The position numbers and the translations under genes were made by a program. Of a stretch of DNA of 64,000 nucleotides, positions 1 through 64,000 are shown one piece after another. How positions within the stretch are numbered: position 1 is the stretch's first letter; each line of letters starts with the position of its first letter. The stretch spans positions 66,380,788 through 66,444,787 of the forward strand of contig CM120640.1 in assembly GCA_051362555.1 (NCBI GenBank), written 5' to 3'. Origin of the DNA: Lingula anatina (Eukaryota; Animalia; Brachiopoda). Under the pieces are notes generated by a model. The model saw only the letters and a program-made list of their open reading frames with translations. It was not told the origin of the DNA and ran no database searches.

Positions 1-155
1 ACAGATATCTTTTGTAATATAATTATGCTTCTTTCTTTCCTTATTAATTCAATTCTGCTAATTTTGCTATGGTAAAAAAATCTAGTCACAGAAATGATAA
101 ATAACCCACAGCATATTCCCTGACTGTCTAGTGTAACTTAAGTTGATCACTCTAC

Positions 156-846
156 CTGGTCCAAATCCCACTGCAAATGCTGCTACATATACCATCAATG
201 CTACCATAGACAGCCATTTGGTCCAAGGGGAAACATTCCACTCTGGAGCATCCACTGTCCTGTTTTTCTCTACACTCAATGTGTCAGCTGAGTTAAACAG
301 TACTGTAGAATTAGTCTTACCACTTGTGTTATTGTCATCATATATCACATCAACCCCCATGACTAAAGGTGGGTAATTACTTCCTGATGAGTTCATGTCC
401 CGTCTCTCTCGCTGTGCTGGTATATGTGTTGTTGAGACTGGAAAAATGTCAAAACCAGCTGCAAAAGCTGGAGATTGGCTGGAGAGATTCCCTATCTCAG
501 GTCCAGCTCCACTGGTCACTGGTTCACAGCCCTGGTACCTGGACACCCCTGGACTGGTCAGGTTTTGATTTTGGCACGGACGGACATCTCTATGAGGCAA
601 GGAGAGAGTGCCTACACCCAGCAGAAATATGCTAATTCCCATACAGCAGCCACCAAACATGAGGAAGGTCCTCCTTCCTGTCCTGTCAACAGAGAGCAGG
701 GCACACACAGTGGCCAGGACCTGGAAGGGGACATCACTAATAGTAGTAGTAGTAGTAGTAGTTTAGTACACCAAGGCAACATAACATTTAAAGGTAAAAA
801 GTAAAATAGCACAATTTTTAAGTACAAAGAACCAATTCACTTTCTA

Positions 847-890
<44 letters not shown>

Positions 891-3800: not shown

Positions 3801-5527
3801 AAATAATTCTGCAATTAATATATTCTGTCTTGAATTATGTTCATTGCAGGAGAAAACTCAAATACAGTAAGATGTAACTGTTCATAATAATAGAACCAAA
3901 AGCCTCCTTTATTTTACACACCAAAGTCAATATAATCACTATTCAAGAGAGTATTATGACTTGCCTCCAGATAGTGATCCTATGACAGCCCCCAGAAGCA
4001 TGGTGCTCACCACCAGTTCTCTCTCTATACAGGATAGAGAGAAATCCACCTTGAGCTGGAGCAGAGCACCTGAGATTATCCCTAAATAACAGGTGATGGA
4101 TTACAATTTAAATAATATGATATTATGTAATGGATAATAATAATAATAAATAACACGGTATGATGTAATGTATTAAAATAAATAACACAATAAGATGTTA
4201 GTATGGCAGCCTGAGAATGGTAACTCTGAAGGATGAAAAACAAATATATATGCGTATGTCCGTTTTCATCCAGGTAATGTACACTCAAGAATCAAAAGTC
4301 AAAGGATTATATTGGCATTTTCAAGCCAGTCTTTAGCTATCTGGGCCAATCTCTAAACAAATCTCTCACGTAAGTGATTCCAACCCTGGGCACTGATGCA
4401 GCTGACAAGTTTCTACGATGTGGCTGAAATCAAATAACTTCATGGAAAGACTGTTGAGAGATTGGCCCAGAAAATGTAGAGCTGAGAACCACCATGAGTG
4501 AAAGAAGCATCTGCCTTTTACATGTATTAAAATCCTGGTGCCCACATCAAGTGCTGCTGCTGACTTGATGATGATTATGATGATTTACTAAATAAATAAG
4601 ATAAGATAATATTTGAAGCTAGAGTAACATGGCAATAAGATTTCAGTGATTTCATATGTAATACACCAATATGAGCAAACTGAATTTCAGCATGTCTCCC
4701 ACTACCTTTTGCAACTGTGGAACAATGGAAGGCATAAAATACTTACAAAAGAAAACAATGAGCTGAATGATAAGTAATGCCAGGGTCCCTAATTTAAAGG
4801 AGCTCAGAGATAATTAAAGAGTAATTGCATACCTTTAGCTAACATCAGATATGTAATTTAAAGGTAAATTGGAATCAATGCTTTGTGTGGTCAGCAAGAT
4901 AAACCACACACCTTACACATAAATTTAAAAACTTTTGCTTTTGACAATCCTGGAAAGTACTTCACTATGGAAAATCAGCACTGCACTTGCTAGGCTGCCA
5001 TAATGATTATTTTTGACATTTCCTTCAAATCCTGCAATATCTTCCTTGATTTTATGTTAAGTCACAAGACTTTAGGCTACCTTTGATGATCCCCATTAAT
5101 TTTCTTTCCAATCTTTTTAGTGTAGACTCTAGCACAAAAGGAGATATCTAAGAATGTAAAATATGGGTTTTAGGAACTAAGATCATACTAGAGATAGTCA
5201 TATCAGCAGTAATTAAATTAAATCAGCTCAATCAACAGATGTTATTGCATATTACTGGTATACACAAGAACTTGTTAGACCCGTTTCTGGTCCAATCTTG
5301 GAACACTTACCCACATCATATCCAAATAACACACCTCCAATAGCTGCCATAAAAGAAGCCACAAAGACATAGATACTGTTGCCACCATCAGGTGGTGCTG
5401 TTGATGGTGCCACACTGGTACCAATGCCATTGCCACTAGCACCATCTTCATTCACTCCAAGTGTCACGTTCTCTCCTTCATGCTGATTGGTAGAATATGA
5501 AGCCATATGCTCTCCTTGTCTATCCAT
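156..5527 (-). CDS. SLC2A10: Facilitated sugar transporter, class III GLUT10/GLUT12-like (MFS); multi-exon, 3' end lies outside the window
   Basis: Minus-strand exons in consistent phase: 5527(ATG; acceptor at 5541)-5311, 4081-3965, 3667-3561, 3271-3188, 2730-2627, 2284-2176, 1969-1883, 1645-1559, 1349-1239, 720-156. Translation has sugar-porter motifs [79 protein letters not shown] and FAVGFGP, plus the long TM9-TM10 loop of class III GLUTs. SLC2A10 versus SLC2A12 orthology is not resolvable by eye. Confidence 0.9.
740..762. repeat. (TAG)n microsatellite
   Basis: Direct reading. Confidence 0.85.
847..887. repeat. (TATC)n microsatellite
   Basis: About 10 TATC units. Confidence 0.9.
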
Positions 5528-6716
5528 GACCAAGAGTTCAGCTGGAAAATATTATAATTTTTAATCCATTTCATCTTCTTTCTTTACATTGAACTAAAGA
5601 AAAAAGAAATTAATATAAAAGCATGCAAACACTTTTTTGTAATGTCACACCCTAAGATGGGTTTATAAATTCATCTTTAATTGTGAAGAGTTTGCAGAAT
5701 GAAGTGCAGACATGGGGAAAACTGCCAGTCTGACAGGACCTGAAAAGCCAGAGGACTGGATTTTTGATAATGCAAGTCCTCTGGACCGACAAGATTTATG
5801 TGAAAATACAGCAAATAAAAATAACTCACATGTAAACATTTGCTTATGGAAAATAATACCGAATTCGGACCAGCACAATTTTGGGAGGACCTGCAGATTT
5901 CCTGTAGCCCAGGTCCTCAGGACCTTCAGTATCTCAAAAAAATTTCCCCATGTCTAGAAGTGTTCCATTTAGAACACTAATGCAACAACACAGGAAAATA
6001 CACAATGCTGAATCAATACCAAGTGGACTTGTGTGTGTAACATGTGACTGTTAATCTTGGTTTCATCTTTAATAGATGTATGTTTCATATAAGAAGAAAT
6101 TTGTTAAATCCATGTCCTTAAGAAACCATCTGCACTAAAATGACAAAGACCGGCACAAAACTACGAATATTATCCCAAGACAACCATCTCATCAACTTAC
6201 CCTTATCTTCTACGTATACGTACACACAGTTTTATATATGCATGCAACTTTCCTAAGCTAATACCAGATATGAGTATATCACTGGCAATGAAAACCAGCA
6301 CCATGGAAAATGTATGGATCATATACTAGTATGTACATTTACATGCAAAAAATATTCCATATTTGACTGTCTCTATCAAGTTAAATCATACTAGTGAAAA
6401 AAGATGTCTGTTTATCTAAACCAAAATCATCTATAAAACTAAACAACAAAATAATGCAATTAGGATATGTAAGGGATATACAGTTTGCTATTTCAAAAAT
6501 TTTCAATTTCTTTTCCCTACATATTTTAAACCATTCTCCTAGAATACAAACATTTTTAAAATAATTATATCTACCTGTGTCAGACAGAGATTCTTGGGAG
6601 TTAGATAGTGCTTCCATATGTCAAGCATATCATGTAGGGTTAGCACCACTCAAGCCCAGCATACAGCACCATATCGTGGTATCTATTATGAAATAAAAGC
6701 AGCTGGCTTTTAATAC

Positions 6717-17032: not shown

Positions 17033-20000
17033 TCCTTGGCTGCATTGCCCCAGACCAGGTGGGGATCACACATACCCATGAGCACCTGTCCATGACATTT
17101 GAAGTGACTTATATCCCACCTCCACCAGGAGATGAGGGCAAGGTCAACCTGCCATTTGAGATGAAAAACTTGGGTTGGATTCGCCAGTACCCGTAAGTGC
17201 ACCGAACTAGCATTTGTAAGTAAAAGAAAAAAATAACGCTAGTCTGTTTGCTAATTGGGATTTTAGAATTAACTGTTAACAAGCATTTATTCAAGGTGAG
17301 CCAAGTTACAGACATCATAGATATCAAACACTTGGAAATGTAACTCAAAATGGGACAATTCAGAAATGAGTGCGTAACTCGTCTCACCTTCCTGGCATTT
17401 TTATTTCCATCAGTGAAGAGTTCTAGTTCGAAGTGCTTTATATCCAAGATGTCATTAGCTTTGCACACCTTAATTGTCATAAAATGTTTGCTTACAAATA
17501 TTTTTAAATCACAGTTTATTGTACCACCAGCGTTAGCGCTGGCGGTACACATGGTTTTAGTCCCGTCCGGTCCGTTCCGCCGGCTCCGCCGGCTCCTGCG
17601 GCTCCGCCGGCTCCGCCGCCATGTTACCGTTACCGCTTCTCCTCCTAGACGGTAAGGGCCCCCATACCCATCTCTTGGATTTAGGTCACCTATAATCTCA
17701 ACTCGTTCCACGTAAAATTTGGGCTTTGTCGGTATTGGGGTCTAGGTGTGGCATTCATTGCAATGCACCCTTGTCCAAAAATGGCAAAATTAAATGCTAA
17801 TTATCTCCCCTACGGAAGGAATTATGGGAAAAATTTCTACAGATGGCTTTCCAAAAGTCATATGTGTAGATTTCAAATATGCCCTTGGATTTGACCTTTG
17901 ACCTTTATTTCAAGGTCAAACAGGCCAAAATTTTCAAAAAAACAAAATTTTTGCCAAAAAAAATGATTTGCGCTCTTATTCAGACACCACACAGACTTAA
18001 CTAACAATATTAATGGAAAGTGTTACATTTCGGGTCATCTTTCATCTCCGTGAATTTGGGGTCAATCGGTGCATTTTCACGGGAGTAGCGGCCATAAGAT
18101 ATCGAAACTGAAAACTGTCTCTAATTCGGGAACCGTTAATGCTAGACACTCATTCTTTTTTGCATTTTGTAGAGCATGTAAAGCCCAACACTGGAGGTGG
18201 TCTCCGTTTTTTTGTATTCCATACGGTTTTCGAGTTACGCTGTATCAAAAAGTACATATTGGTGGTGAAAGCAAAATGTGCAGTACGGTAATGGATAATA
18301 AATTTTGAACTCTGGAAAAATAAAACATAAGGCTTAGCAAAGCAGACAACTTGTGGTCAAAAATGACATTATTTCATCAAATTTGAACATCTGGAACTTC
18401 AGAGCACCTCCCATTTCAAGAATTTTGACCAAAATGACCTTTTCTTTATTTTAATTAATTTTTTCTGTAGGAAATTTATGGCACATTATGGTAACTCCAA
18501 AATTATACCATTTAGTCCCTTATATCTCCAAAACTGGCAGAGATAGGTCCATAGTTACTATTGAAGTTGAATAGGAAGTCATATACTGGCAATCTAAATG
18601 TGACCTTAAAATTGACCTTTGACCTACTTTTCACCATGAACTGAACTTTGCAAATTTTGCTTCCCTTTTATCTCCAAAACTGGCAGAGATAGGTCCATAG
18701 TCTCTATTGAACTTCAATAGGAAGTCATATACTGGCAATCTACATGTGACCTTAAAATTGACCTTTGACCTACTTTTCACCATGAACTGAACTTTGCAAA
18801 TTTTGCTTCCCTTTTATCTCCAAAACTGGCAGAGATAGGTCCATAGTTTCTATTGAACTTGAATAGGAAGTCATATACTGGCAATCTACATGTGACCTTA
18901 AAATTGACCTTTGACCTACTTTTCACCATGAACTGAACTTTGCAAATTTTGCTTCCCTTTTATCTCCAAAACTGGCAGAGATAGGTCCATAGTCTCTATT
19001 GAACTTGAACAGGAAGTCATATACTGGCAATCTACATGTGACCTTAAAATTGACCTTTGACCTACTTTTCACCATGAACTGAACTTTGCAAATTTTGCTT
19101 CCCTTTTATCTCTAAAGTTACGCTGTATCAAAAAGTACATATTGGTGGTGAAAGCAAAATGTGCAGTACGGTAATGGATAATAAATTTTGAACTCTGGAA
19201 AAATAAAACATAAGGCTTGGCAAAGCAGACAACTTGTGGTCAAAAATGACATTATTTCATCAAATTTGAACATCTGGAACTTCAGAGCACCTCCCATTTC
19301 AAGAATTTTGACCAAAATGACCTTTTCTTTATTTTAATTAATTTTTTCTGTAGGAAAGTTATGGCACATTATGGTCACTCCAAAATTATACCATTTAGTC
19401 CCTTATATCTCCAAAACTGGCAGAGATAGGTCCATAGTTACTATTGAAGTTGAATAGGAAGTCATATACTGGCAATCTAAATGTGACCTTAAAATTGACC
19501 TTTGACCTACTTTTCACCATGAACTGAACTTTGCAAACTTTGCTTCCCTTTTATCTCCAAAACTGGCAGAGATAGGTCCATAGTCTCTATTGAACTTGAA
19601 TAGGAAGTCATATACTGGCAATCTAAATGTGACCTTAAAATTGACCTTTGACCTACTTTTCACCATGAACTGAACTTTGCAAATTTTGCTTCCCTTTTAT
19701 CTCCAAAACTGGCAGAGATAGGCCCATAGTTACTATTGAAGTTGAATAGGAAGTCATATACTGGCAATTTACTGTGACCTTGGAATTGACCTTTGACCTA
19801 CCTTACGATGAACTTAACTTTGATTGTACCATTTTTAGTTATATATATATTTTTTGCATATTTTGAAAATTCTTGTTGATTGCATTTTTACAGCTTGTCA
19901 AGCACAAGACTGGTGGCTGTGTTCCTTATTTTGTGTATGTGGGGGTCTGTACGAATGCGCTTGCTCCAGCTGGTGGTACAATATTCGGAGGCGGTATCGC

Positions 20001-23175: not shown

Positions 23176-26100
23176 TTATTGTACCACCAGCGTTAGCGCT
23201 GGCGGTACACATGGTTTCGGTCCCGTCCGGATCGTTCCGCCGGCTCCGCCGGCTCCGTTGGCTCCGCCGGCTCCGCCGGACGGCTACCGTTACCGCTTCT
23301 CCTCCTAGACGGTAAGGGCCCCCGTACCCATCTCATGGATTTAGGTCACCTATAATCTCAACTCGTTCCACGTAAAATTTGGGCTTTGTCGGTATTGGGG
23401 TCTGGGTGTGGCACTCATTGCAATGCACCCTTGTCTAAAAATGGCAAAATTAAATGCTAATTATCTACCCTACGGAAGGAGTTATGGGAAAAATTTCTAT
23501 AGACGGCTTTCCAAAAGTCATATGTGTAGATTTCAAATATACCCTTGGATTTGACCTTTGACCTCTACTTCAAGGTCAAATGGGCCAAAATTTTCAAAAA
23601 AATGAAATTTTTTACGAAAAAAATTTTTTTTGCCCTGTTATTCAGACACCACACAGACTTAACCAATAATATTATTGGAAAGTGTTACCCTTCAGGTCAT
23701 CTTTTATCTCCATGAATTTGGGGTCAATTGGTGCATTTTCACGGGAGTAGCGGCCATAAGATACTGAAACTGAAAACTGTCTCTAATTCGGGAACCGTTA
23801 ATGCTAGAGACCCATTCTTTTTTGCATTTTGTAGAGCATGTAAAGCCCAACACTGGAGGTGGTCTCGGTTTTTTTGTATTCCATACGGTTTTCGAGTTAC
23901 GCTGTATCAAAAAGTACATATTGGTGGTAAAAGCAAAATGTGCAGTACGGTAATGGATAATAAATTTTGAACTCTGGAAAAATAAAACATAAGGCTTGGC
24001 AAAGCAGACAACTTGTGTTCAAAAATGACATTATTTCATCAAATTTGAACTTCTGAAACTTCAGAGCACCTCCTATTTCAAGAATTTTGACCAAAATGAC
24101 ATTTTCTTTATTTTAATTAATTTTTTCTGTACGAAATTTAAGGCACATTATGGTAACTCCAAAATTATAACATCTAGTCCCTTATATCTCCAAAACTGGC
24201 AGAGATAGGTCCATAGTTACTATTGAAGTTGAATAGGAAGTCATATACTGGCAATCTTACTATGACCTTGAAATTGACCTTTGACCTACTTTTCACCATG
24301 AACTGAACTTTGCAAATTTTTCTTCCCTTTTATCTCCAAAACTGGCAGAGATAGGTCCATAGTTACTATTGAACTTGAATAGGAAGTCATATACTGGCAA
24401 TCTAAATGTGACCTTTAAATTGACCTTTGACCTACTTTACACCATGAACTGAATTTTGCAAATTTTGCTTTCCTTTTATCTCCAAAACTGGCAGAGATAT
24501 GTCCGTAGTTACTATTGAAGTTGAATAGGAAGTCATATACTGGCAATCTATATGTGACATTAAAATTGACCTTTGACCTACTTTTCACCATGAACTGAAT
24601 TCTGCAAATTTTGCTTTCCTTTTATCTCCAAAACTGGCTGAGATAGGTCCGTAGTTACTATTGAACTTGAAAAGGAAGTCATATACTGGCAATCTAAATG
24701 TGACCTTATAATTGACCTTTGACCTACTTTTCACCATAAACTGAACTTTGCAAATTTTTCTTCCCTTTTATCTCCAAAACTGGCAGAGATAGGTCCGTAG
24801 TTACTATTGAAGTTGAATAGGAAGTCATATACTGGCAATCTAAATGTGACCTTAAAATTGACCTTTGACCTACTTTACACCATGAACTGAATTTTGCAAA
24901 TTTTGCTTTCCTTTTATCTCCAAAACTGGCTGAGATAGGTCCATAGTTACTATTGAACTTGAATAGAAAGTCATATACTGGCAATCTAAATGTGACCTTA
25001 AAATTGACCTTTGACCTACTTTTCACCATAAACTGAACTTTGCAAATTTTGCTTCCCATTTATCTCCAAAACTGGCAGAGATAGGTCGATAGTTACTATT
25101 GAACTTGAATAGGAAGTCATATACTGGCAATCTAAATGTGACCTTGAAATTGACCTTTGACCTACTTTTCACCATGAACTGAACTTTGCAAACTTTTCTT
25201 CCCTTTTATCTCCAAAACTGGCTGAGATAGGTCTATAGTTACTATTGAACTTGAAAAGTAAGTCATATACTGGCAATCTAAATGTGACCTTAAAATTGAC
25301 CTTTGACCTACTTTACACCATGAACTGAATTTTGCAAATTTTGCTTTCCTTTTATCTCCAAAACTGGCTGAGATAGGTCCGTAGTTACTATTGAACTTGA
25401 ATAGGAAGTCATATACTGGCAATCTAAATGTGACCTTAAAATTGACCTTTGACCTACTTTTCACCATAAACTGAACTTTGCAAATTTTGCTTCCCTTTTA
25501 TCTCCAAAACTGGCAGAGATAGGTCCATAGTTGCTATTGAACTTGAATAGGAAGTCATATACTGGCAATCTAAACGTGACCTTGAAATTGACCTTTGACC
25601 TACTTTTCACCATGAACTGAACTTTGCAAACTTTTCTTCCCTTTTATCTCGAAAACTGGCTGAGATAGGTCCATAGTTACTATTGAACTTGAAAAGGAAG
25701 TCATATACTGGCAATCTAAATGTGACCTTAAAATTGACCTTTGACCTACTTTTCACCATTAACTGAACTTTGCAAATTTTGCTTCCCTTATATCTCCAAA
25801 ACTGGAAGAGATAGGTCCATAGTTACTATTGAAGTTGAATAGAAAGTCATATACTGGCAATTTAAATGTGACCTTAAAATTGACCTTTGACCTACTTTTC
25901 ACCATTAACTGAACTTTGCAAATTTTGCTTCCCTTTTATCTCCAAAACTGGCAGAGATAGGTCCATAGTTTCTATTGAACTTGAATAGGAAGTCATATAC
26001 TGGCAATCTAAATGTGACCTTATAATTGACCTTTGACCTACTTTTCACCATAAACTGAACTTTGCAAATTTTTCTTCCCTTTTATCTCCAAAACTGGCAG

Positions 26101-29019
26101 AGATAGGTCCGTAGTTACTATTGAAGTTGAATAGGAAGTCATATACTGGCAATCTAAATGTGACCTTAAAATTGACCTTTGACCTACTTTACACCATGAA
26201 CTGAATTTTGCAAATTTTGCTTTCCTTTTATCTCCAAAACTGGCTGAGATAGGTCCATAGTTACTATTGAACTTGAATAGAAAGTCATATACTGGCAATC
26301 TAAATGTGACCTTAAAATTGACCTTTGACCTACTTTTCACCATAAACTGAACTTTGCAAATTTTGCTTCCCATTTATCTCCAAAACTGGCAGAGATAGGT
26401 CGATAGTTACTATTGAACTTGAATAGGAAGTCATATACTGGCAATCTAAATGTGACCTTGAAATTGACCTTTGACCTACTTTTCACCATGAACTGAACTT
26501 TGCAAACTTTTCTTCCCTTTTATCTCCAAAACTGGCTGAGATAGGTCTATAGTTACTATTGAACTTGAAAAGTAAGTCATATACTGGCAATCTAAATGTG
26601 ACCTTAAAATTGACCTTTGACCTACTTTACACCATGAACTGAATTTTGCAAATTTTGCTTTCCTTTTATCTCCAAAACTGGCTGAGATAGGTCCGTAGTT
26701 ACTATTGAACTTGAATAGGAAGTCATATACTGGCAATCTAAATGTGACCTTAAAATTGACCTTTGACCTACTTTTCACCATAAACTGAACTTTGCAAATT
26801 TTGCTTCCCTTTTATCTCCAAAACTGGCAGAGATAGGTCCATAGTTGCTATTGAACTTGAATAGGAAGTCATATACTGGCAATCTAAACGTGACCTTGAA
26901 ATTGACCTTTGACCTACTTTTCACCATGAACTGAACTTTGCAAACTTTTCTTCCCTTTTATCTCGAAAACTGGCTGAGATAGGTCCATAGTTACTATTGA
27001 ACTTGAAAAGGAAGTCATATACTGGCAATCTAAATGTGACCTTAAAATTGACCTTTGACCTACTTTTCACCATTAACTGAACTTTGCAAATTTTGCTTCC
27101 CTTATATCTCCAAAACTGGAAGAGATAGGTCCATAGTTACTATTGAAGTTGAATAGAAAGTCATATACTGGCAATTTAAATGTGACCTTAAAATTGACCT
27201 TTGACCTACTTTTCACCATTAACTGAACTTTGCAAATTTTGCTTCCCTTTTATCTCCAAAACTGGCAGAGATAGGTCCATAGTTTCTATTGAACTTGAAT
27301 AGGAAGTCATATACTGGCAATTTAAATGTGACCTTAAAATTGACCTTTGACCTACTTTTCACCATTAACTGAACTTTGCAAATTTTGCTTCCCTTTTATC
27401 TCCAAAACTGGCAGAGATAGGTCCATAGTTTCTATTGAACTTGAATAGGAAGTCATATACTAGCAATTTAAATGTGACCTTAAAATTGACCTTTGACCTA
27501 CTTTTCACCATGAACTGAATTCTGCAAATTTTGCTTTCCTTTTATCTCCAAAACTGGCTGAGATAGGTCCGTAGTTACTATTGAACTTGAATAGGAAGTC
27601 ATATACTGGCAATCTAAATGTGACCTTAAAATTGACCTTTGACCTACTTTTCACCATAAACTGAACTTTGCAAACTTTTCTTCCCTTTTATCTCCAAAAC
27701 TGGCTGAGATAGGTCTATAGTTACTATTGAACTTGAAAAGGAAGTCATATACTGGCAATCTAAATGTGACCTTAAAATTGACCTTTGACCTACTTTACAC
27801 CATGAACTGAATTTTGCAAATTTTGCTTTCCTTTTATCTCCAAAACTGGCTGAGATAGGTCCGTAGTTACTATTGAACTTGAATAGGAAGTCCTATACTG
27901 GCAATCTAAATGTGACCTTAAAATTGACCTTTGACCTACTTTTCACCATAAACTGAACTTTGCAAATTTTGCTTCCCTTTTATCTCCAAAACTGGCAGAG
28001 ATAGGTCCATAGTTGCTATTGAACTTGAATAGGAAGTCATATACTGGCAATCTAAATGTGACCTTGAAATTGACCTTTGACCTACTTTTCACCATGAACT
28101 GAACTTTGCAAACTTTTCTTCCCTTTTATCTCGAAAACTGGCTGAGATAGGTCCATAGTTACTATTGAACTTGAAAAAGAAGTCATATACTGGCAATCTA
28201 AATGTGACCTTAAAATTGACCTTTGACCTACTTTACACCATGAACTGAAATTTGCAAATTTTGCTTTCCTTTTATCTCCAAAACTGGCTGAGATAGGTCC
28301 GTAGTTACTATTGAACTTGAATAGGAAGTCATATACTGGCATTATAAATGTGACATTAAAATTGACCTTTGACCTACTTTTCACCATAAACTGAACTTTG
28401 CAAATTTTGCTTCCCTTTTATCTCCAAAACTGGCAGAGATAGGTCCAAAGTTACTATTGAACTTGAATAGAAAGTCATATACTGGCAATCTAAATGTGAC
28501 CTTGAAATTGACCTTTGACCTACTTTTCACCATGAACTGAATTTTGCAAATTTTGCTTCCCTTTTATCTCCAAAACTGGCTGAGATAGGTCCATAGTTAC
28601 TATTGAAGTTGAAAAGAAAGTCCTATACTGGCAATCTAAGTGTGACCTTGAAATTGACCTTTGACCTACTTTTTATCATGAACTGAACTCTGCTAATTTC
28701 TTTCTCTTTTAACTTTAAACTTGACAGAGATAGGTCCATAGTTACTCTTGAACTTGAATAGGAAGTCATATACTGGCAATTTACTGTGACCTTGAAATTG
28801 ACCCTTGACCTACCTTACGAAGAACTTAAATTTGATTGTACCATATATATTTTTTGCAATAGTTTAAAAATTCTTGTTGATTGCATTTTTACAGCTTGTC
28901 AAGCACAAAACTGGCGGCTGTGTCCCTTATTTTGTGTATGTGGGGGTCTATACGAATGCGTTTGCTCCAGCTGGTGGTACAATATTTGGAGGCGGTATCG
29001 CCTCTCTGATCCTCTAGTT
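23176..29019 (+). mobile_element. HINE-like element, copy B, with greatly expanded internal satellite
   Basis: Same 5' (about 1 kb) and 3' (about 210 bp) modules as copy A; inserted about 300 bp after the PTER copy 2 stop codon. Confidence 0.87.
24180..28812. repeat. Tandem satellite array, 146-bp monomer, about 32 units
   Basis: Unit TTATCTCCAAAACTGGCAGAGATAGGTCCATAGTTACTATTGAACTTGAATAGGAAGTCATATACTGGCAATCTAAATGTGACCTTAAAATTGACCTTTGACCTACTTTTCACCATGAACTGAACTTTGCAAATTTTGCTTCCCTT. Period measured as 146 in copy A (18611 to 18757); repeated ORFs here are spaced 438 and 1314 bp apart. Confidence 0.97.
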
Positions 29020-33600: not shown

Positions 33601-35124
33601 GTAGATTTCAAATATGCCCTTGGATTTGACCTTTGACCTTTATTTCAAGGTCAAATGGGTCAAAATTTTCAAAAAAACGAATTTTTTTACGAAAAAAAAA
33701 TTATTTGCGCTGTTATTCAGACACCACACACACTTAACCAATAATATTATTGGAAAGTGTTACCCTTCGGGTCATCTTTCATCTCCATGAATTTGGGGTC
33801 AATCGGTGCATTTTCACGGGAGTAGCGGCCATAAGATACCGAAACTGAAAACTGTCTCTAATTTGGGAACCGTTAATGCTAGAGACCCATTCTTTTTTGC
33901 ATTTTGTAGAGCATGCAAAGCCCAACACTGGAGGTGGTCTCCGTTTTTTTGTATTCCATACGGTTTTCGAGTTACGTGGTATCAAAAAGTACATATTGGT
34001 GGTGAGAGCAAAATGTGCAGTACGGTAATGGATAATAAATTTTGAACTCCGGAAAAATAAAATATAAGGCTTGGCGAGGCAGACAACTTGTGGTCAAAAA
34101 TGACATTATTTCATCAAATTTGAACATCTGGAACTTCAGAGCACCTCCCATTTCAAGAATTTTGACCAAAATGACCATTTCTTTATTTTTATTATTTTTT
34201 TCTGTATGAAATTTATGGCTCATTATTGTAACTCCAAAATTATAACATTTAGTCCCTTATATCTCCAAAACTGGCAGAGATAGGTCCATAGTTACTATTG
34301 AACTTGAATAGGAAGTCATATACTGGCAATCTAAATGTGACCTTGAAATTGACCTTTGACCTACTTTTCATCATGAATTGAACTTTGCAAATTTTGGTTC
34401 CCTTTTATCTCCAAAACTGGCAGAGATAGGTCCATAGTTACTATTGAACTTGAATAGGAAGTCATATACTGGCAATCTAAATGTGACCTTGAAATTGACC
34501 TTTGACCTAATTTACACCATAAAGTGAACTTTGCAACTTTTTAATGCTTTTATTTTCAAAACTGGCAGAGATAGATCCATAGTTACTATTGAATTTGAAT
34601 AGAAAGTCATTAGAGGCAATTTACTGTGACCTTGAAATTGACCTTTGACCTACTTTTAACCATGAACTAAACTTTGCAAATTTTGTTCCCTTTTATCTCC
34701 AAAACTAGCAGAGATAGGTCCATAGTTACTATTGAACTTGAATAGGAAGTCATATACTGGCAATCTAAATGTGACCTTGAAATTGACCTTTGACCTACTT
34801 TTCATCATGAATTGAACTTTGCAAATTTGGTTCTGTTTTATCTCCAAAACTAGCAGAGATAGATCCATAGTTACTATTGAACTTGAATAGGAAGTCATAT
34901 ACTGGCAATCTAAATGTGACCTTGAAATTGACCTTTGACCTACTTTTCATCATGAATTGAACTTTGCAAATTTGGTTCTGTTTTATCTCCAAAACTAGCA
35001 GAGATAGATCCATAGTTACTGTTGAACTTGAATAGGAAGTCATATACTGGCAATCTAAATGTGACCTTGAAATTGACCTTTGACCTACCTTACTATGAAC
35101 TGAACTTTGATTGTACCATTTTTA

Positions 35125-48475: not shown

Positions 48476-49618
48476 ATGTCTGCAGTAGGATATCAGCAGT
48501 CCATACGGTTTCTGGGCGGGATTTGTATTGTTTTGCTTGTTGTTATGTTGGACCTCATATACTTTAATGGATCAACGCCGCAACTGAATAGAAAAGGAAT
48601 GAACGTTACTGTGCCTCAGTTTAAAAAATATCAGGCACGTGTATGTTCTCTGGACTTTTTACGGAACTACTTCGTGAAAACCGGACGCTTTTTTGGAGGT
48701 GGGAAATGGGTGAATGATAAATGGTGGCCAAAAGATTGCATGATGCCTAAATACCTTAGCCCTGAACAACTTGCACCTTGTTTAGTAAAGAAAAACATAA
48801 AGAAAATAGGGCAAGTCGGAGATTCACAATCTATGCGGTATATGGCAGCTATAAAACGGGGTGAAAATGCTTATTCGTGTAAATTGTTAAAAAGTGAAAG
48901 CACGATGTCAAGATCACCAGCTCCAAGTTACTTCAGCCCTCCTCTTGACCCCAAGTCCATACGAGTAGCCAGCAGGGACTGTAGCGGGTGTGCCGGACAG
49001 CTTGTTCGCTGTACACCTCAAGGTAGCACAGAAACGACTGACATTGAAGTGTTAATTACGGAATATACTAAAGACCATGAAATATCTACAAAAAGAAATG
49101 CCTGGAAACATGAGTGCGACGACAGGCTGAAGAATATTAGTGGAATATTTTGTCAAGAGTCGATGACAACGCAAGAGGTGTATTTCCGTGAATACTGGGC
49201 TCTTTCTGGATACCCAGATGTAATCATTATATATGCTGTTCACGCCCACGAGGCACAAAAGCGACGGCCAAGTGATTTTAGACGTGATTTCACTTGGTTT
49301 ATAGACCTTGTCGTTTCTGTGGTGCCAAAAACAACAAAGATTTTATACTGGAACTCCCCGCAGGTTAATTCTGCCAAACAACCAGTCTTTTGGAGAAATA
49401 TCACTGCCAATACATACATCAGCCAATTAAATGCAGTAAGCGCATCTGTGATAAAAAAATTCATCATTGAGAAAAAGGTAAATAATTTATACCCGATGTT
49501 TGACTTATATGGAATATCTAGGGACGTCATGAAGTGGATTGTAGATGGAGTTCACTTCTCGGGTCCGTGGTACAACCAAATTATCACGCTGTTTTGGACA
49601 ACTTTATGTGCAGATTAA
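48476..49618 (+). CDS. Type II membrane SGNH/PC-esterase-like protein (NXPE/TBL/CASD1-like acyl-esterase or acyltransferase fold), 380 aa, single coding exon
   Basis: Long ORF preceded by acceptor TTACAG|C-ATG; N-terminal hydrophobic anchor; G.W...W.P..C motif; catalytic-type GDS (VGDSQSMRY) and C-terminal DGVH. Probable non-coding exon at about 47988-48056. Confidence 0.85.
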   Translation: MSAVGYQQSIRFLGGICIVLLVVMLDLIYFNGSTPQLNRKGMNVTVPQFKKYQARVCSLDFLRNYFVKTGRFFGGGKWVNDKWWPKDCMMPKYLSPEQLAPCLVKKNIKKIGQVGDSQSMRYMAAIKRGENAYSCKLLKSESTMSRSPAPSYFSPPLDPKSIRVASRDCSGCAGQLVRCTPQGSTETTDIEVLITEYTKDHEISTKRNAWKHECDDRLKNISGIFCQESMTTQEVYFREYWALSGYPDVIIIYAVHAHEAQKRRPSDFRRDFTWFIDLVVSVVPKTTKILYWNSPQVNSAKQPVFWRNITANTYISQLNAVSASVIKKFIIEKKVNNLYPMFDLYGISRDVMKWIVDGVHFSGPWYNQIITLFWTTLCAD

Positions 49619-53182: not shown

Positions 53183-54451
53183 ATGCAGTCCCAAGACAAG
53201 CTGCCATTTCCAAAATGCTCCTTCTTCATTGTAGCTTCCATAATGCTCGTTTTCATCTTGATGTTAACTTTTCGCTGTAACAGCATTCAAAGGACGGCGC
53301 CTGAATTTGTTGGGATCAATATAGATGTTAGAACTCAATCACCACACAGTATATTTAAACCTGAGTTTGTTACGTTCAATACAGATGTTAGGACCAGACC
53401 ACCAGGCACCATCACTGCCAACACTGCCACCAAAACCTCCAAGGAAATAACCAAGCATGTTTCAAAGACTCGAAATTGTTCCTTATTGTATCTTCAAAAC
53501 TACTTGGCAGAAAAGGGGCGGTTTTTTGGAGAAGGGCAGTGGGTCAAGGGCCAGTGGGAACCGAGAAGTTGTCAAGTGCCTGAACGAGTGAACGCTGAAC
53601 GGCTGGCTCAATGTCTTACAGCAAAGAAGATAGAAAAAATTGGAATCCTTGGTGACTCTCAGTCCATGAGGTATGCTGCAATGATAAGAACAGGAGAAGG
53701 TGCGTTTCAGTGTAAGAAAACGAAAGCCGAAAATGGCGGGAACAGATCACCGTCCATTAATTTCTTTTCTCCACCAATTGCAGCTAATGATTTGCGAGCT
53801 ACCACACGTGACTGTTTAGGTTGCGCCGGTTTACAGGCCACTTGTACGTTTGGGAGTTCGAAAAATTCCGTGATTAAGATCGAAAACATGATTACGGAAA
53901 ACGTTAAGGACAGTGAACTAATCACACGGAGAAGTTCGGTTTAAAAAAATTGTGACGATCGGCTTACGAATAAAACTGGCATTCCGTGTCTAGAGTCTAG
54001 TACCACGCAAGAGGTGATATTTCAAGAGTACTGGTGCCTTGACGGCTACCCAGATGTGATCATCGTGTTTGCAACTCATGTCCACGAAGCTGTGAAGAGA
54101 AACGCCAGGAATTTTGAGCGAGATTTTACGTGGTTCGTCGATCTTATAACAACCGTGGTGCCCAAGACTACCAAGATTCTTTATGTGAATGCACCCAAGG
54201 TGACTCCACCACAGCCAGAAGCATGGAAGACTGAAGGTCGAAATATTTTTATAGATGAACTCAACAAAATAGCAGCGGCTGTGATTCATCGGTCAATAGT
54301 GGAGCGCAAGGTGCCAAATCTGTACCCGATGTACGATATGTTTTCTATGTCTGTAGATCGAAATGTCTGGAATGGAGATGGCGTACATTTCAAACCACAG
54401 TGGTACAAGCATGCTGCGTCCTTACTGTGGACTACTTTGTGCATGGACTGA
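53183..54451 (+). pseudogene. Paralog of the 48476 SGNH-like gene with one in-frame TAA at 53942-53944 (422 codons if read through)
   Basis: ORFs 53129..53944 and 54014..54451 are in the same frame and align continuously with the upstream paralog (LGDSQSMRY, RDC.GCAG, CDDRL, TTQEV.F.EYW, GYPDVII, DGVHF, WTTLC.D). Confidence 0.7.
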
Positions 54452-58855: not shown

Positions 58856-58975
58856 TAGACACCGCACACAACACTTCCATAGAGAAGTCCCGGCTGGTGC
58901 GTTATGAGCGACGATCCAGAAGGGGTTATTCTGAACGAGAAACAGTCCAGTCACACCCACACCGACCAACAGCAG

Positions 58976-61900
58976 ATGACTAAAGGTATTTGTAGTTTCT
59001 TTGTGTATAGATTGTGCTTTAGAACGATTTTTTTAATTCGATGATTAGATTGCATTACTTTTTTAGCCGCATAAGTTGGTTTGATTTAACAGCATGATGT
59101 TATTTGTTTACATAATCTCTCTCTCACTCTCTCTCTCATAATTTCCATTCTGATTCATTTTGAAAATAACATCATCTAACGATTCAGTTTCAAAATATTT
59201 CATCCCGTTTTCTCACGGCGGTCTGAGACCCTGGCGCCGGCGTTAATCTCTCTTAGCCACATTAATATAGTATCCATCACCTGTAGACTTTCGCCCACCC
59301 CGTTCCTTAATCACGGGCGTGGTCCCTGAGGCCTAAGTATGCTTATTATATGTAATCCATACCTAAGGGCATCAGCACAGGTAAATTTTGACTAGAGCTA
59401 CATGACACGCCCTACGCTGCGTCATTTTAATTATTGTGAACGATGTTTTACCAAGATACGTTCGTTGGTGAGACATTGCGCGTTTGTGTGTATCGCGTCT
59501 ATCTAAAATATATATAATAGATTTTTTTATTGACATTTGACATTTTAAAGCATAAACAATAAAGAAGAAAGAAATGAAATCAGCCCGACGGTGGTTTTGA
59601 AATAAATAATTATTACTTTCAGGTGCCATCTCTCAGAGGCACTGGCATTATTAAGGTGTCAATGTACAAGTGGATGAGAGATATCATGGGGTCATGAACA
59701 CCTAGGTGTCAGTTACTGTACCCCTAGGCTGTGCCAATATAACTGCCCATAATTCTAGGCAAGGCGCATTCCATTCTAAAAACCAAATTAATTGGGTTTT
59801 TGGTGCTTTTACACCAAAGCATAATATCAGCATAAATGATTATACCAACTGTTCTGTATTCAAAAGTGCGTTCTATCATTAAATTGTATACATGTATGTT
59901 TGTGCTATGTCTTAAGTCTCGTCAAACAGATCCTCCGTGCAAAATATACCATTTTATATTTGTTATTCGTTTTAACATGAGTTTGAAACACTTTCCAATA
60001 AGAAGAATTGTTTTATTCTGACCAAAATTCACCTTCAAAAGATCTTACTTTGATTTGTTATTGTAGAAGAAAAAGGAGAGGGCAGCATGTCACGTACAGC
60101 CATAGCCATAGCCGTCCTCGCCCTGCTTATTGCCGTTGTGGCATGTGTCCTAGTTTTGTTGGTTTGGATTCGTCCTGAATTGGTCAGGTAGGTGGCGTCC
60201 CCTCATAACATTTTAGAATCTTAAAGGTGAGAACTTTGATGGCCTATAAACTTATATTCAATTGAATTTGGAGACCGTATAATTAAAACAAAATATTGTC
60301 TCGCATTGACCGCTGTGCTCATTGCATCGTCTTTTCATCTACATGTACGTGGTTGAGACATTCGTATTGGAATGAATTATTCCATAAAATAATCCTTAGA
60401 CATAATACTGAACTAAATTTCTTTAAATCGTGTTATATGATGATTTGCTCTTCTTACAAATTACAGTCCGCCAGCAACTGCCAAAGACAGTGAAGCGATA
60501 GCAAAACAGAGTGCCACTGAAGCCGCGGCACAAATCAAAACAATGGTGGACTCCATCAAAGAGGAAATGAAGAATCAAGCAAAGTCGCAGCAAACCCATA
60601 CATTTGCTTATAGTAATGACTGGCCACCTATGGATTACCTGTAAGTTTTACTGTTTCCAGTAAGTTTAAACTTACAACATTTGTATCCTATCGTGTCTAT
60701 GAGTGTCACATGAAGATGTAGCAATTTACCTAGTCATTATGCATGTCATAATTATGTGAGGTCGGGCATTTTAAAAAGCTTGAAAAACCACCTTTCAGAG
60801 ACAAAAGAAGTCTTCGATCGTGAAAAGACTATTAACTGAACAAAATTTCGTGCAATTGCTCTTGTTTTATTCTTGATATTTGTTTCATCAAAAAGATCAA
60901 CTTTATTTATCTCATCAAATTAATCTAATATCAGTTTGCGTTGATATTGTTTAACTACACGTGTTTATAAACTTTGCTTTCTTATTCAGTGATTCCCAAG
61001 GCTTCCTAAAAGGCTTAAGTATGGACCTTGTAAAAGAAGCGTGTAAAGTTGCTGAGAAAAACTGCAGCCATGTACTCAGCAATGATATATCTCAGTGTTG
61101 GGATACCAGCAAAAAGACCGGGGCAGGTAACATGGATTCTGAAAATCTTCAAATGGCAAAACAAAATCCTATAAATAAGTAAAAAAAGGGTTTAAAGCTC
61201 GTTAACGGATTGGATATGGTGGACTAGTGCTGGTATCTTAGTAATTAAGTTTTTATTTATTTATTTATTTTTTTTTTGGCTGTATAAATGTATAATGCCC
61301 ACTGTGTATCCTTAAGTAATTGGATGCCCAGATGATTTATATACTATTATAGAAATGGTATCAAACACTGGCAATGAATCTTGATAAACTTAAGGATTAA
61401 TTACTGTTTTTACACTTTTTTCTGCTCTTCCCAGGACTTGTCAACCGTTGGTACACTGCATGCGTTGGTTGGTACCCTACTCCTGAACGGCTGAATGCCT
61501 TCGACTTTGTTGGTAGTTTATACGCTCCTGAACAAGCGGCGCTGTACGTCAGGCCCGGCAGTCGAGTTACCTCTGTCACCGGGAGGAACGTCGGTAAGCG
61601 TCTGTATTGAGAATTAATAATTTTCAAAAGTTGACAAAACACCTTGACAGCGTTTTTTTAGCTGCCCTTCCTGTACTCGTATGAACAGTGATCAAATTTT
61701 GAGACGCGTTTTATAGGACCAGAAACATGAACCAGTACCAACACATCTTACAAAATAGCTGTTGCATTTTCGTCACACAGAGAGCATTCACATCGAGAAG
61801 AGCCGGGGTTTAGCAAGGCCGAGACCTAAATATGGCGGACCTACGTGAAAGAAAGACCGCGTAATCCTTTAATCCATTATAAAGGATCACGCGGTCTCCC

Positions 61901-63720
61901 TTTCATGTAGGTCCGCCATATTTATGTCTTGGCCTTGCTAAACCCCGGCTCTTCTCGATGTGAATGCTCTCATAGTGAACCAATCTTGTCACATATAATT
62001 AACTCTTCCTTTCCCTTGTGTTCTAGGTTTAAAGGTGTAATTCCTGGCAATACGTTTGGTGTAATTGTTATTTGATATGTTCTCTTTCAAGGCTTTCGCG
62101 AGGGTTGGAATACGGATGCTGCTTGTCTGGCCAGGAATAGCATTGACGTGCCAGAAGCCAACCGAGTCACTGGCTCGACTTTCACAGAATTAAGAAACAA
62201 GCTTAACAATACTGAGGTATGAGTAATTTTTTTTGTATGAAAAGCTCCTCAGCCCTTCCCAATTAGCTCACAATCTTGATTCAGTGAAAATAATTTTCAT
62301 AAAATGTTTTGACTCATACATGCATTCATACATTCGTGAATTCAGACACATCAATATTTTATTCTACATAACACATGCCACATGGCAATATTTAGATAGA
62401 AATAATTAAGTGCTATCGTACAGGTCCCTAGACTAACCACTATATACATGTATATCATTTTACATGAATTCATATTTTGACTTCAGATTGACCTTATCTT
62501 CGCCCCTGTCAACACCTTCTCTGACCTCGTGGTGTTGGACACGAAGTATGTCTGCACCCTGGGAAGCGCGGGTCTAATGATGAGAAAAGACATCAAAAAC
62601 TCCATGATGTGGTTTCACGATGCTGTTGAGAAAATGAAGACGTCTGGAAAGTTTTCTGAAATCTGTGGAAACGCGCTCAGAGACCACGGTGAGTCTTCTT
62701 TTCACAATCCTAAGGCGCGAAACTAGTGTATGCCCTTTTATTAGTTGTAACGAAATATCAGTGGCGTATTTTTACAATTGTAATAATAAGAATAAGATGT
62801 ATGCTCTTTTATTTATTCATTTTATTTAGCTTAGTTTATTAAGAGCTGTCGTGCAGACCTTACATTGATTGTACATGGACTTGAAAACTATAGAAACGTT
62901 AAGGGTATTTTAAAGTTTTATTATCATCCAGATACCAAAAAAGAGGTTTTTCCTGCTCCTAATCATTCAATAATGCATATACCTTTGTGCTGATTTACAA
63001 CAATAAAGTTCTCCTCGAAAATATAAAATATCGGCGTTTATGTTTACTCGTTTCTATGTATAAGCATAGGCAACATACAGCTTTTATTTAACACTTTGCT
63101 ATTTTGAAGTGAGATAGCAATCGGTATGTGGTGTAGTTTCATCCCTGTACAAGATTTTATCGCAGGAATTGGCATAGTTGACCACAATTGTATGGTTTAC
63201 AATCCCGTGCCTTCATTTTGGTTTAAATGATTTAATATGGAGTTATGAGCCCCATATTACAGGTTTTCATTAAACAAAGGCATAATTTGGGTTTATCAAC
63301 CATAAAATGTGAACTAAGGCTTTTAAGAAAAATAGATGGCGGGGTTTTTTACTAAATGGTGTCTTAAAATTGGCGTTAAAATAGTGTTTGTGGGCGCTCA
63401 GGTAAAGGAAAATTTTGAGAAACCGTTTTTCCGTTTTTATCCCCAAATCGTGATTATGACGTTGCCCGTAAGATGACATGTGTGTAAATGTTTATCAGTT
63501 TATTCACTGAACACTGAAGGTTTATCTGTTATCTAAAAGAATGTATGTAAGGCAGTAAATAAGGAGTTTTTTGCAAACGCGTACAATATCCTTAAGCTAA
63601 ATGAAATGTAGCTTGTTAGTTGATAATTGTTTATAGATAATTCTTCATCATTATCATCCAGATTTTATAACACCACTTTCTCCTATTTTAGGCAAGGCCG
63701 GTATTTGCGTGGCGGGCTAA
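58976..63720 (+). CDS. Membrane-anchored stand-alone solute-binding protein family 3-like (PBPb/SBP_bac_3, polar amino-acid-binding fold), about 318 aa, 8 exons
   Basis: Exons 58976-58985, 60067-60187, 60467-60640, 60990-61126, 61435-61593, 62092-62216, 62487-62688, 63692-63720 join in phase (alternative start at ATG 60087). A TM segment AIAIAVLALLIAVVACVLVLLVWI precedes TFAYSNDWPPMDYLDSQGFLKGLSMDLVKEAC, GWYPTPERLNAFDF, NNTEIDLIFAP and FHDAVEKMKTSGKFSEIC. Confidence 0.85.
61780..61971. mobile_element. Near-perfect palindromic MITE (about 190 bp) in intron 5 of the SBP-like gene
   Basis: GAGAGCATTCACATCGAGAAGAGCCGGGGTTTAGCAAGGCC ... GGCCTTGCTAAACCCCGGCTCTTCTCGATGTGAATGCTCTC; arms of about 90 bp around a short loop; a fragment CCTAAATATGGCGGACC also occurs at about 46421. 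Confidence 0.8.
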
Positions 63721-64000
63721 TCCTGTGTACACCCAGCCTCAAACTATTCTTTTCAAGAACAAATAATTTGGAAGGCAAATGGAGTCTACACCAACTTCGA
63801 ATTCTGTTTGATGCTACAATTATCCGGCATATGTCTTTTTATCAACGAAAATCCTGAAGTGTTTCTTTTGAAGTGTTAATTTTTTTTGCACTTTTAGTTA
63901 ATTAACTTGATGCATGTAGGAGTTCTTGTCCTTTTTCTATCAATATATTTAGTTTTCACTTAGGAGGAATAAAAATGTTTATCAACAGGACACATATAAA

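What the first reader, a model, noticed from the sequence alone, without database searches (positions are those of the whole stretch)
58976..63720. Bacterial-type amino-acid solute-binding protein as an intron-containing, membrane-tethered animal gene
Seen: eight in-phase exons encode one N-terminal TM helix, a helical stalk and a contiguous domain with family-3 SBP hallmarks (PP..Y.D..G.L.G...DL, TPER...FDF, D.I, A...MK.SG.F.EI) and eight extracellular Cys; there are no channel helices. Known: in animals this fold normally appears as the split S1/S2 ligand domain of ionotropic glutamate receptors, while stand-alone forms serve bacterial ABC importers. Inference: a domesticated horizontal transfer (or ancient retention) with gained introns and disulfides, working as a surface amino-acid sensor, scavenger or co-receptor. 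Similar uncharacterised genes may already be predicted in other marine invertebrates.
Basis: partly seen in the sequence, partly recalled or inferred. Interest (0 to 1): 0.85.

Follow-up and report, generated by a model that had tools for sequence, protein, structure and literature searches.

The report
Bacterial-type flytrap binder on animal cells
A lamp-shell (Lingula) gene, spliced from eight exons, codes for a membrane-anchored protein predicted to fold like the capture proteins of bacterial amino-acid importers; relatives occur in six phyla of marine invertebrates, and its altered pocket likely grips a small acid such as a betaine- or ectoine-like salt-balancing molecule rather than a plain amino acid.

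Summary
Eight GT..AG exons give a 342-aa protein, the same as database model P0001 (Lingula anatina). The start codon is 58904, not 58976. Reads support four introns, and coding variants are mostly silent. The domain passes the Pfam SBP_bac_3 cut-off, is modelled as a type II periplasmic-binding fold and has no channel helices.

It is not a one-off domestication. About 150 relatives form one clade (100/100), named in annelids, a mollusc, an echinoderm, a hemichordate and amphioxus, as secreted, anchored or tandem forms. The clade groups with proteobacterial Arg/Lys/His binders (98/98), which already carry one of the cysteine pairs. Unnamed early branches, one bacterial-looking, carry all eight cysteines. 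So neither 'disulfides gained in animals' nor the timing of transfer is shown.

The carboxylate-binding Arg is kept (138 of 149). The two alpha-ammonium contacts are mostly lost, and here are replaced as in the ectoine binder EhuB. Best reading: a cell-surface capture protein for a small, probably N-substituted carboxylate, needing a partner to signal or import.

Ten exact-phrase paper searches found no description. This scan noted an Owenia member before, as worm-specific, which is too narrow.

The parts
58904..58985 (+). Coding exon 1: residues 1-27, predicted cytoplasmic tail; first ATG at 58904
   Evidence: same start as P0001; joint 58985-60067 in 6 reads of X7
60067..60187 (+). Coding exon 2: residues 28-67, holding the single membrane helix (about 60099-60167, residues 39-61)
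   Evidence: hydropathy peak 3.5; modelled helix 37-62
60467..60640 (+). Coding exon 3: helical stalk (73-108) and start of the binding domain, with Trp120
   Evidence: flanking joints not listed in reads, exon covered in X7-X9
60990..61126 (+). Coding exon 4: residues 126-171, with Gly134, Cys144, Cys151, Cys162, Trp163
   Evidence: family HMM E 5e-12 on this exon
61435..61593 (+). Coding exon 5: residues 172-224, with Cys181, Tyr185 (61473-61475) and the carboxylate-binding Arg190 (61488-61490)
   Evidence: joint near 61126-61435 in 3 reads
61773..61978 (.). 99-nt inverted repeat (MITE-like insert) inside intron 5; not part of the protein
   Evidence: 91% complementary arms; reads of other copies pile up here
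62092..62216 (+). Coding exon 6: residues 225-266, second lobe, Gly229-Trp230, Cys236
   Evidence: joint to exon 7 in 7 reads of three runs
62487..62688 (+). Coding exon 7: residues 267-333, Asp268, Pro273 (62505-62507, where bacterial binders mostly have Asp), Cys289, Cys326
63692..63720 (+). Coding exon 8: residues 334-342, Cys339 and the stop codon; reads continue into the 3' UTR
   Evidence: joint 62688-63692 in 9 reads of three runs; read variants at 63724-63747
63968..63973 (+). Candidate polyadenylation signal AATAAA
   Evidence: use not shown

Best explanation
The gene is transcribed, spliced and under purifying selection, and its product is predicted to be a type II membrane protein whose disulfide-braced, two-lobed flytrap domain likely closes on a small carboxylate outside the cell, in this paralogue most likely an N-substituted zwitterion of the betaine, proline-betaine or ectoine kind. 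Arg190 would hold the carboxylate. Trp120, Trp163 and Tyr185 would cage a bulky or delocalised cation, because the Ser/Thr and Asp that bind a free alpha-ammonium are replaced by Tyr185 and Pro273, the same swap seen in EhuB. The short, unconserved tail cannot plausibly signal, so the protein would work as a capture or hand-off factor that concentrates the solute at an epithelial surface for a separate transporter or chemoreceptor. It belongs to an old family of secreted and anchored paralogues with varied pockets, present before spiralians and deuterostomes split and ultimately derived from proteobacterial-type Arg/Lys/His binding proteins. Shown: gene, splicing, selection, family, residue pattern. 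Predicted: fold, topology, disulfides. Inferred: ligand class, partner, tissue.
For: Fold: pLDDT 89; best structural matches Z 21.4-21.7, rmsd 2.4-3.1 over 209-220 residues, are Arg/Lys/Orn/His binders and a sensor domain. Pocket: Arg190 column kept in 138 of 149 family domains and 65 of 65 bacterial domains. Acid at the 273 column: 13 of 149 against 45 of 65. Ser/Thr at the 185 column: 23 of 149 against 35 of 65. The acids at columns 117 and 136 are also mostly lost, 25 and 17 of 149 against 47 and 51 of 65. Three EhuB homologues have F, F, Y at 185 and P, P, T at 273; P0001 has Y and P. Architecture: of 148 family hits, 38 look signal-anchored, 63 signal-peptide-like and 47 neither or fragmentary; 8 have tandem domains; none has channel helices. 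Tail: 38 residues here, about 7 in paralogue P0002. Family clade 100/100, with proteobacterial Cys-pair binders 98/98. Aromatic cages bind betaine-type ammonium groups in cluster F binders (PMC9732360, passages).
Against: No binding data. The EhuB likeness rests on two alignment columns and three homologues, one of them only partly aligned. Only 40 of 149 family domains have an aromatic at 185 and 34 of 149 Pro at 273, and paralogue P0002 has Arg-adjacent differences of its own, so the ligand class cannot be extended to the family. By profile the family is closer to Lys/Arg/Orn binders (TIGR01096 matches 88 of 117 members) than to EhuB (4 of 117). Pocket geometry was not inspected in the model's coordinates. 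Expression was low and seen mainly in one study's runs; tissue is unknown. No partner transporter or receptor was identified. Membrane orientation is inferred from cysteines and two N-glycosylation sequons.
Confidence: 0.45

Rival explanations
1. It is a surface binder or co-receptor for ordinary alpha-amino acids, capturing dissolved free amino acids from seawater, with backbone groups or water replacing the lost side chains.
For: Nearest families by profile, structure and tree all bind Arg, Lys, His, Orn or Gln. Arg190 and Gly183 are kept (138 and 109 of 149). A minority of family rows, including all three repeats of P0028, keep the acid. Uptake of dissolved amino acids across the skin of soft-bodied marine invertebrates is well known (recalled).
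Against: Both alpha-ammonium contacts and both side-chain acids are missing in P0001 (S117, S136, Y185, P273).
Confidence: 0.25
2. The domain no longer cycles on a small solute; it is a rigid, disulfide-locked module that binds larger partners (peptide C-termini, sialylated or sulfated glycans, lipids) in mucus, adhesion or microbe recognition.
For: Eight Cys are conserved at 90% or more. Pocket columns vary widely across paralogues, and there are lineage-specific expansions and tandem forms. New conserved aromatics sit at 184, 230 and 271 (128, 114 and 116 of 149).
Against: The buried carboxylate-binding Arg is near-invariant. Coupled losses suggest local pairs 144-151 and 326-339 (P0128, P0131, P0084) rather than a cross-lobe lock, though the pairing of 162, 181, 236 and 289 was not determined.
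Confidence: 0.17
3. It is an ecto-enzyme that arose from the binding fold, as cyclohexadienyl dehydratase did.
For: Cyclohexadienyl dehydratases appear among the profile and fold matches; type II anchoring is common for ecto-enzymes (recalled).
Against: Apart from Cys and Gly134, only Arg190 reaches 90% conservation; no family-wide candidate catalytic residue was seen in the cleft.
Confidence: 0.07
4. It is a glutamate-receptor or IR ligand domain that lost its pore and rejoined its two halves.
For: Same fold class: rotifer AvGluR1 Z 19.0, Drosophila GluRIIB Z 18.8, ctenophore and NMDA/kainate domains Z 17.6-17.8. 3 of 117 members touch PF10613 weakly.
Against: Contiguous domain and stop codon after exon 8 in spliced reads. 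116 of 117 members match SBP_bac_3. No iGluR among the 13 sequence hits of P0001 or the 60 best of 198 profile hits in the PDB. Bacterial binders score Z 21.4 or more at about 20% identity, against 9-15% for iGluR domains. The 144/151 Cys pair is shared with proteobacterial binders.
Confidence: 0.04
5. Origin rival: the family entered eukaryotes early, persists in protists and was lost in many animals, rather than being transferred into the animal or bilaterian stem. The opposite reading is transfer from an already Cys-rich bacterial subfamily like P0028.
For: Seven unnamed proteins (P0142, P0100, P0131, P0137, P0028, P0084, P0128) branch outside the 39-row clade that holds all named animal rows (96/98). 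Four of them have a GC-rich amino-acid make-up unlike the animal rows (GARP/FYMINK 1.8-2.9 against 0.8-1.3). P0137 is signal-anchored like a eukaryotic type II protein.
Against: None of these rows has a species name and their DNA was not found; they could be animals or bacteria. A tree with P0028 as sister to all other members is not rejected (p-AU 0.42), so a bacterial donor that already had the disulfides stays possible.
Confidence: 0.45

Closest known systems
Proteobacterial polar amino-acid ABC binding proteins: LAO/ArgT (1lst), HisJ (1hsl), ArtI/ArtJ/STM4351 (2y7i), SAR11_1210 (8hqr); TIGR01096, Pfam PF00497
   Same: Contiguous type II binding fold (Z up to 21.7), carboxylate Arg, the Cys pair at 144/151, the GL..R.YD...G...T.ER...DF segment; nearest group in the tree.
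   Different: About 20% identity and far below curated cut-offs; three more Cys pairs; alpha-ammonium and side-chain acid contacts lost; signal anchor plus stalk; seven introns; no permease or ATPase gene in the window.
EhuB ectoine/hydroxyectoine-binding protein (TIGR02995, PDB 2q89)
   Same: Same fold (Z 18.2, rmsd 3.1, 216 aligned, 20% identity); aromatic at Arg-5 and Pro at the Asp position, no acids at columns 117 and 136.
   Different: Not the nearest relative by profile (4 of 117 members match), lacks the family's Cys; the pocket likeness is probably convergent and is untested.
iGluR / IR ligand-binding domains (GluR0, AvGluR1, GluRIIB, GluN, plant GLR)
   Same: Same fold class (Z 17.6-19.7), extracellular and membrane-attached.
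   Different: Here the domain is not split by a pore, has one N-terminal helix, no channel and no ATD; Pfam and PDB sequence matches favour bacterial binders.
Insect odorant-binding proteins (functional analogy only, recalled)
   Same: Small disulfide-braced extracellular ligand carriers in expanded families with varied pockets that do not signal themselves.
   Different: Unrelated fold; this family includes membrane-anchored forms and is predicted to bind hydrophilic acids.
Database gene models of this family: LOC106151505 and LOC106151348 (Lingula), XP_002732422.1 (Saccoglossus), GFS25155.1 (Elysia), XP_041462558.1 (Lytechinus), XP_066301533.1 (Branchiostoma)
   Same: The same family, already predicted and auto-named 'uncharacterized' or 'ABC transporter arginine-binding protein'.
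   Different: Names are automatic; no paper on them was found.

Membership tests
Pfam SBP_bac_3 (PF00497) | Score above the gathering cut-off | tested here: met
   44.3 bits against 26.4; 116 of 117 aligned members match at E <= 0.01
Pfam SBP_bac_3 (PF00497) | Two-lobed type II periplasmic-binding fold | tested here: met
   Predicted model pLDDT 89; Z 21.7, rmsd 2.4, 215 aligned to 8hqr; Atlas model TM 0.76-0.80 to SBP_bac_3 clusters
Polar amino-acid ABC importer binding proteins (TIGR01096, ArtI/ArtJ/HisJ/ArgT) | Curated NCBIfam score cut-off | tested here: not met
   23.5 bits against 256; ArtI 28.3 against 522
Polar amino-acid ABC importer binding proteins (TIGR01096, ArtI/ArtJ/HisJ/ArgT) | Arg that binds the alpha-carboxylate (R77 of LAO, numbering recalled) | tested here: met
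   Arg190; 138 of 149 family and 65 of 65 bacterial domains
Polar amino-acid ABC importer binding proteins (TIGR01096, ArtI/ArtJ/HisJ/ArgT) | Ser/Thr and Asp that bind the alpha-ammonium (S72 and D161 of LAO, roles recalled) | tested here: not met
   Tyr185 and Pro273; family 23 and 13 of 149 against 35 and 45 of 65 bacterial domains
Polar amino-acid ABC importer binding proteins (TIGR01096, ArtI/ArtJ/HisJ/ArgT) | Cognate permease and ATPase | tested here: inconclusive
   None among the long frames of the window; the whole genome is not held
Ionotropic glutamate receptors / IRs | Pore helices M1-P-M3 splitting the ligand domain, plus M4 | tested here: not met
   One N-terminal helix only; spliced reads run into the stop of exon 8; none of 148 family hits has such helices
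Ionotropic glutamate receptors / IRs | Match to Lig_chan-Glu_bd or Lig_chan | tested here: not met
   No match for P0001 at E <= 1; 3 of 117 members weak, best 2e-4
Ionotropic glutamate receptors / IRs | Nesting within iGluR/IR clades in a tree | not testable with these tools
EhuB ectoine binders (TIGR02995) | Curated cut-off | tested here: not met
   No match for P0001; 4 of 117 members, best E 1.5e-10
EhuB ectoine binders (TIGR02995) | Aromatic at Arg-5 and loss of the ammonium-binding Asp | tested here: met
   F/F/Y and P/P/T in three homologues; Y and P in P0001
EhuB ectoine binders (TIGR02995) | Cation-pi cage geometry and ectoine binding | not testable with these tools
   Model coordinates were not inspected; needs a binding assay
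Bacterial contaminant sequence | Intronless, bacterial neighbours, no polyA RNA | tested here: not met
   Seven GT..AG introns, oligo-dT reads across four joints, GC and neighbours like the rest of the window

The most novel reading that the evidence does not exclude
Marine bilaterians carry an unrecognised repertoire of bacteria-derived, disulfide-braced flytrap proteins, secreted or anchored, whose pockets diverged to read waterborne osmolytes and food cues (betaines, ectoine, DMSP, amino acids). They would be the aquatic counterpart of insect odorant-binding proteins and the missing high-affinity capture step in skin uptake or tasting of dissolved organic matter, acquired before the protostome-deuterostome split.
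Probability: 0.25. Interest if true: 0.85.

Novelty: new variant of a known kind. Interest (0 to 1): 0.62.

Why it matters
In animals this fold is known as the split sensor of glutamate receptors (recalled). A free-standing, expanded family in brachiopods, annelids, molluscs, echinoderms, hemichordates and amphioxus means the bilaterian ancestor had a second, independent use of it. The soluble 240-residue domain is easy to express and screen, so it makes old questions testable: how soft-bodied marine animals capture and taste dissolved solutes, and whether a bacterial gene was fixed before bilaterians split. Disulfide-stabilised flytrap domains with new pockets are also scaffolds for fluorescent biosensors.

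Tried and rejected
No whole genome is held for the window, so copy number and a permease partner could not be checked genome-wide. Single-exon Pfam scans gave only a weak SBP_bac_3 hint, E 0.15. The word-index protein searches found only 1, 2 and 4 proteins and missed the family that the full HMMER search found. No RNA holder was listed by index; the runs came by species label. Runs X1, X3 and X4 gave no exon coverage and X2 covered exon 4 only.

DNA context for the unnamed early-branching rows was not found: 21, 63 and 199 pattern matches, none confirmed. Plasmid tblastn with P0028 and P0023 gave no match. The Atlas listed only ordinary bacterial SBP_bac_3 clusters.

A Cys-rich bacterial member was sought with the family profile in 1,415 genome searches (the sets overlap; 6-25 candidates scored per genome). 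Of the 65 long domains extracted from the fetched loci, none had more than 4 Cys. This is 'not found in those searched', not absence. Three genomes's tally are marked unpublished (G498, G411, G530); they enter that tally only, and no locus or tree row comes from them.

The single-sequence fold of P0028 failed (pLDDT 38) and is not used. No complex was predicted, since no protein partner is claimed. Rejected: contamination; a recent Lingula-specific transfer (family in six phyla, several old paralogue groups in Owenia); a channel-extending transcript. Simakov et al. 2015 (PMC4729200; passages and a term search of its two text supplements) gave no hit for this family; tables held as pictures would not be seen.
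Full report
Observation. The window is AT-rich animal DNA (GC 0.31-0.42). Eight exons between 58904 and 63720 join through GT..AG introns of 270-1081 bases into one open frame of 342 codons. A search with exon 5 returned one protein, P0001, 342 aa, named by NCBI as uncharacterized LOC106151505 of Lingula anatina; its sequence matches my translation. The protein has a 38-residue N-terminal tail, one hydrophobic helix, a modelled helical stalk and a domain from about 110 to 341 with eight Cys and two N-glycosylation sequons.

Expression and selection. Seven of nine listed runs were laid. In the three oligo-dT runs of one study, joints appear for intron 1 (6 reads), intron 4 (3 reads, one base off), intron 6 (7 reads) and intron 7 (9 reads). 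Introns 2, 3 and 5 are not listed. The last joint leads into the exon with the stop codon and on into 3' UTR, so no channel-coding extension was seen. Depth is low (about 1-3). Four runs of two other studies gave almost nothing on the exons. Of 15 coding variants listed, 11 are silent (pN/pS 0.10, binomial p 3e-5); only reads at 95% likeness or more were counted.

Fold. Pfam SBP_bac_3 scores 44.3 bits against a cut-off of 26.4. The best NCBIfam matches are ArtI, ArtJ and the Lys/Arg/Orn family, far below their cut-offs. The AlphaFold2 model built on 117 sequences has pLDDT 89. Its best matches are SAR11_1210, LAO, a Silicibacter binder and a sensor domain at Z 21.4-21.7. Glutamate-receptor domains follow at Z 19.7 (GluR0), 19.0 (AvGluR1), 18.8 (GluRIIB) and 17.6-17.8, so fold alone does not exclude them. 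Sequence and architecture do: no iGluR is among the 13 PDB hits of P0001 or the 60 best of 198 profile hits, and only 3 of 117 members touch PF10613. A tree with iGluRs could not be built.

Family. A full HMMER search gave 202 representatives at E <= 0.001 and 115 at 1e-10 (150 shown). Three of the 150 look like ordinary bacterial proteins (P0143, P0146, P0150). I looked up 30 representatives; 9 carry a species name, all marine bilaterians: Elysia, Lamellibrachia, Owenia (four), Lytechinus, Saccoglossus and Branchiostoma. With Lingula that is six phyla. The other 21 are unnamed; nothing here tests cnidarians, sponges, arthropods or vertebrates. A paralogue P0002 (51% identical) has the same longest-contig length in the database but is not in the window. 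By crude hydropathy, 38 of 148 hits are signal-anchored, 63 signal-peptide-like and 47 neither or fragmentary; 8 have two or three tandem domains; none has channel helices. All eight Cys, Gly134 and Arg190 are conserved at 90% or more; 112 of 149 domains have all eight Cys. The 149 are the 163 domains longer than 150 profile columns, less bacterial rows and near-duplicates.

Origin. I collected bacterial outgroups as the best matches to the family profile in samples of four phyla, which biases them towards look-alikes. In a careful tree of 81 rows (48 family, 33 bacterial) the family is one clade (100/100, long stem) and falls with the proteobacterial Arg/Lys/His-type binders (98/98, short branch). 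All 17 proteobacterial domains have the Cys pair at 144/151, against 1 of the other 48, so that pair was likely inherited. All named animal rows lie in a 39-row clade (96/98). Seven unnamed proteins branch outside it; four have a GC-rich amino-acid make-up unlike the animal rows. P0028 has three repeats with all eight Cys, keeps the ammonium-binding Asp and has a lipoprotein-like start (the lipoprotein reading is recalled). A tree with P0028 as sister to the rest is not rejected (p-AU 0.42). No Cys-rich member turned up in 1,415 prokaryote genome searches. The ultimate source is therefore likely bacterial, but whether the gene entered the animal stem or an older eukaryote, and where the three extra Cys pairs arose, is open.

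Pocket. Bacterial binders hold the carboxylate with an Arg and the alpha-ammonium with a Ser/Thr five residues before it and an Asp in the second lobe (roles recalled; the PDB titles list LAO mutants at D11, Y14, D30, F52, S72, R77 and D161). The Arg is kept. The Asp column is acidic in 13 of 149 family domains against 45 of 65 bacterial ones, and the Ser/Thr column in 23 of 149 against 35 of 65; relatedness among rows inflates the p-values. P0001 has Tyr185 and Pro273, and Ser at both side-chain acid columns. Three EhuB homologues show F/F/Y and P/P/T at those two columns. EhuB binds ectoine (title of Hanekop 2007, seen in the reference list of PMC9732360; its aromatic cage is recalled). The same paper's passages describe aromatic cages for betaine groups in cluster F binders. 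Against this, the family is much closer to Lys/Arg/Orn binders than to EhuB by profile (88 against 4 of 117), and the two columns vary widely among paralogues.

Mechanism. Most likely the domain closes on a small carboxylate at the cell surface, here probably an N-substituted zwitterion, and hands it to or concentrates it for a separate transporter or receptor; the tail is short and unconserved. I put this at 0.45, plain amino-acid binding at 0.25, a rigid binder of larger partners at 0.17, an enzyme at 0.07 and a pore-less iGluR at 0.04.

Literature. Nine searches pairing the family, its automatic names or PF00497 with animal terms gave no paper on it. The listed papers (PMC11291939, PMC3251606, PMC3749206, PMC8195603; also PMC4955205) were seen as listings and abstract openings only. 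PMC4729200 describes microbe-like genes in deuterostomes, but the passages read and its two text supplements do not mention this family. The searches are exact-phrase and cover open-licence papers only. This scan earlier noted an Owenia member as one of a worm-specific family (e1-9714543); the named deuterostome members show a wider range.

Verdict. A real gene of an old, apparently undescribed invertebrate family: a new variant of a known fold, with the ligand and the route of origin open. Interest 0.62.

Noticed in passing
window 12780-37724, + strand: Tandem cluster of at least three phosphotriesterase-related (PTER-like) genes; two exons score above the Pfam PTE cut-off, similar exons recur at 12780, 14501, 20603 and 21662.
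   Followed up: partly
window about 18500-19800, 24200-28800, 34300-35100: Blocks of a 146-base tandem repeat, 87-98% alike, inside longer duplicated segments of the PTER cluster.
   Followed up: no
window 48476-49618 and 53183-54451, + strand: Two intronless paralogues with an N-terminal hydrophobic stretch and GDS...DGVH motifs (SGNH-hydrolase-like, recalled; no convincing Pfam hit). The second is interrupted by an in-frame TAA at 53942-53944; the part after it is 56% identical to the first.
   Followed up: partly
window 82-5551, - strand: Exons of a sugar-transporter (Sugar_tr) gene with a long loop.
   Followed up: no
window 61773-61978: MITE-like 99-nt inverted repeat in intron 5, with RNA reads from other copies.
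   Followed up: no
P0040 / P0164 (Owenia gene models): A family domain fused in front of a carbonic anhydrase domain; may be a real fusion or a merged model.
   Followed up: no
P0028 (unnamed Logan record, 14.3 kb contig): 785-aa protein with three repeats of the family domain, all Cys and the canonical Asp, and a lipoprotein-like start; possibly bacterial.
   Followed up: partly
P0080: A family member with a hydrophobic C-terminal tail that could be a GPI signal.
   Followed up: no
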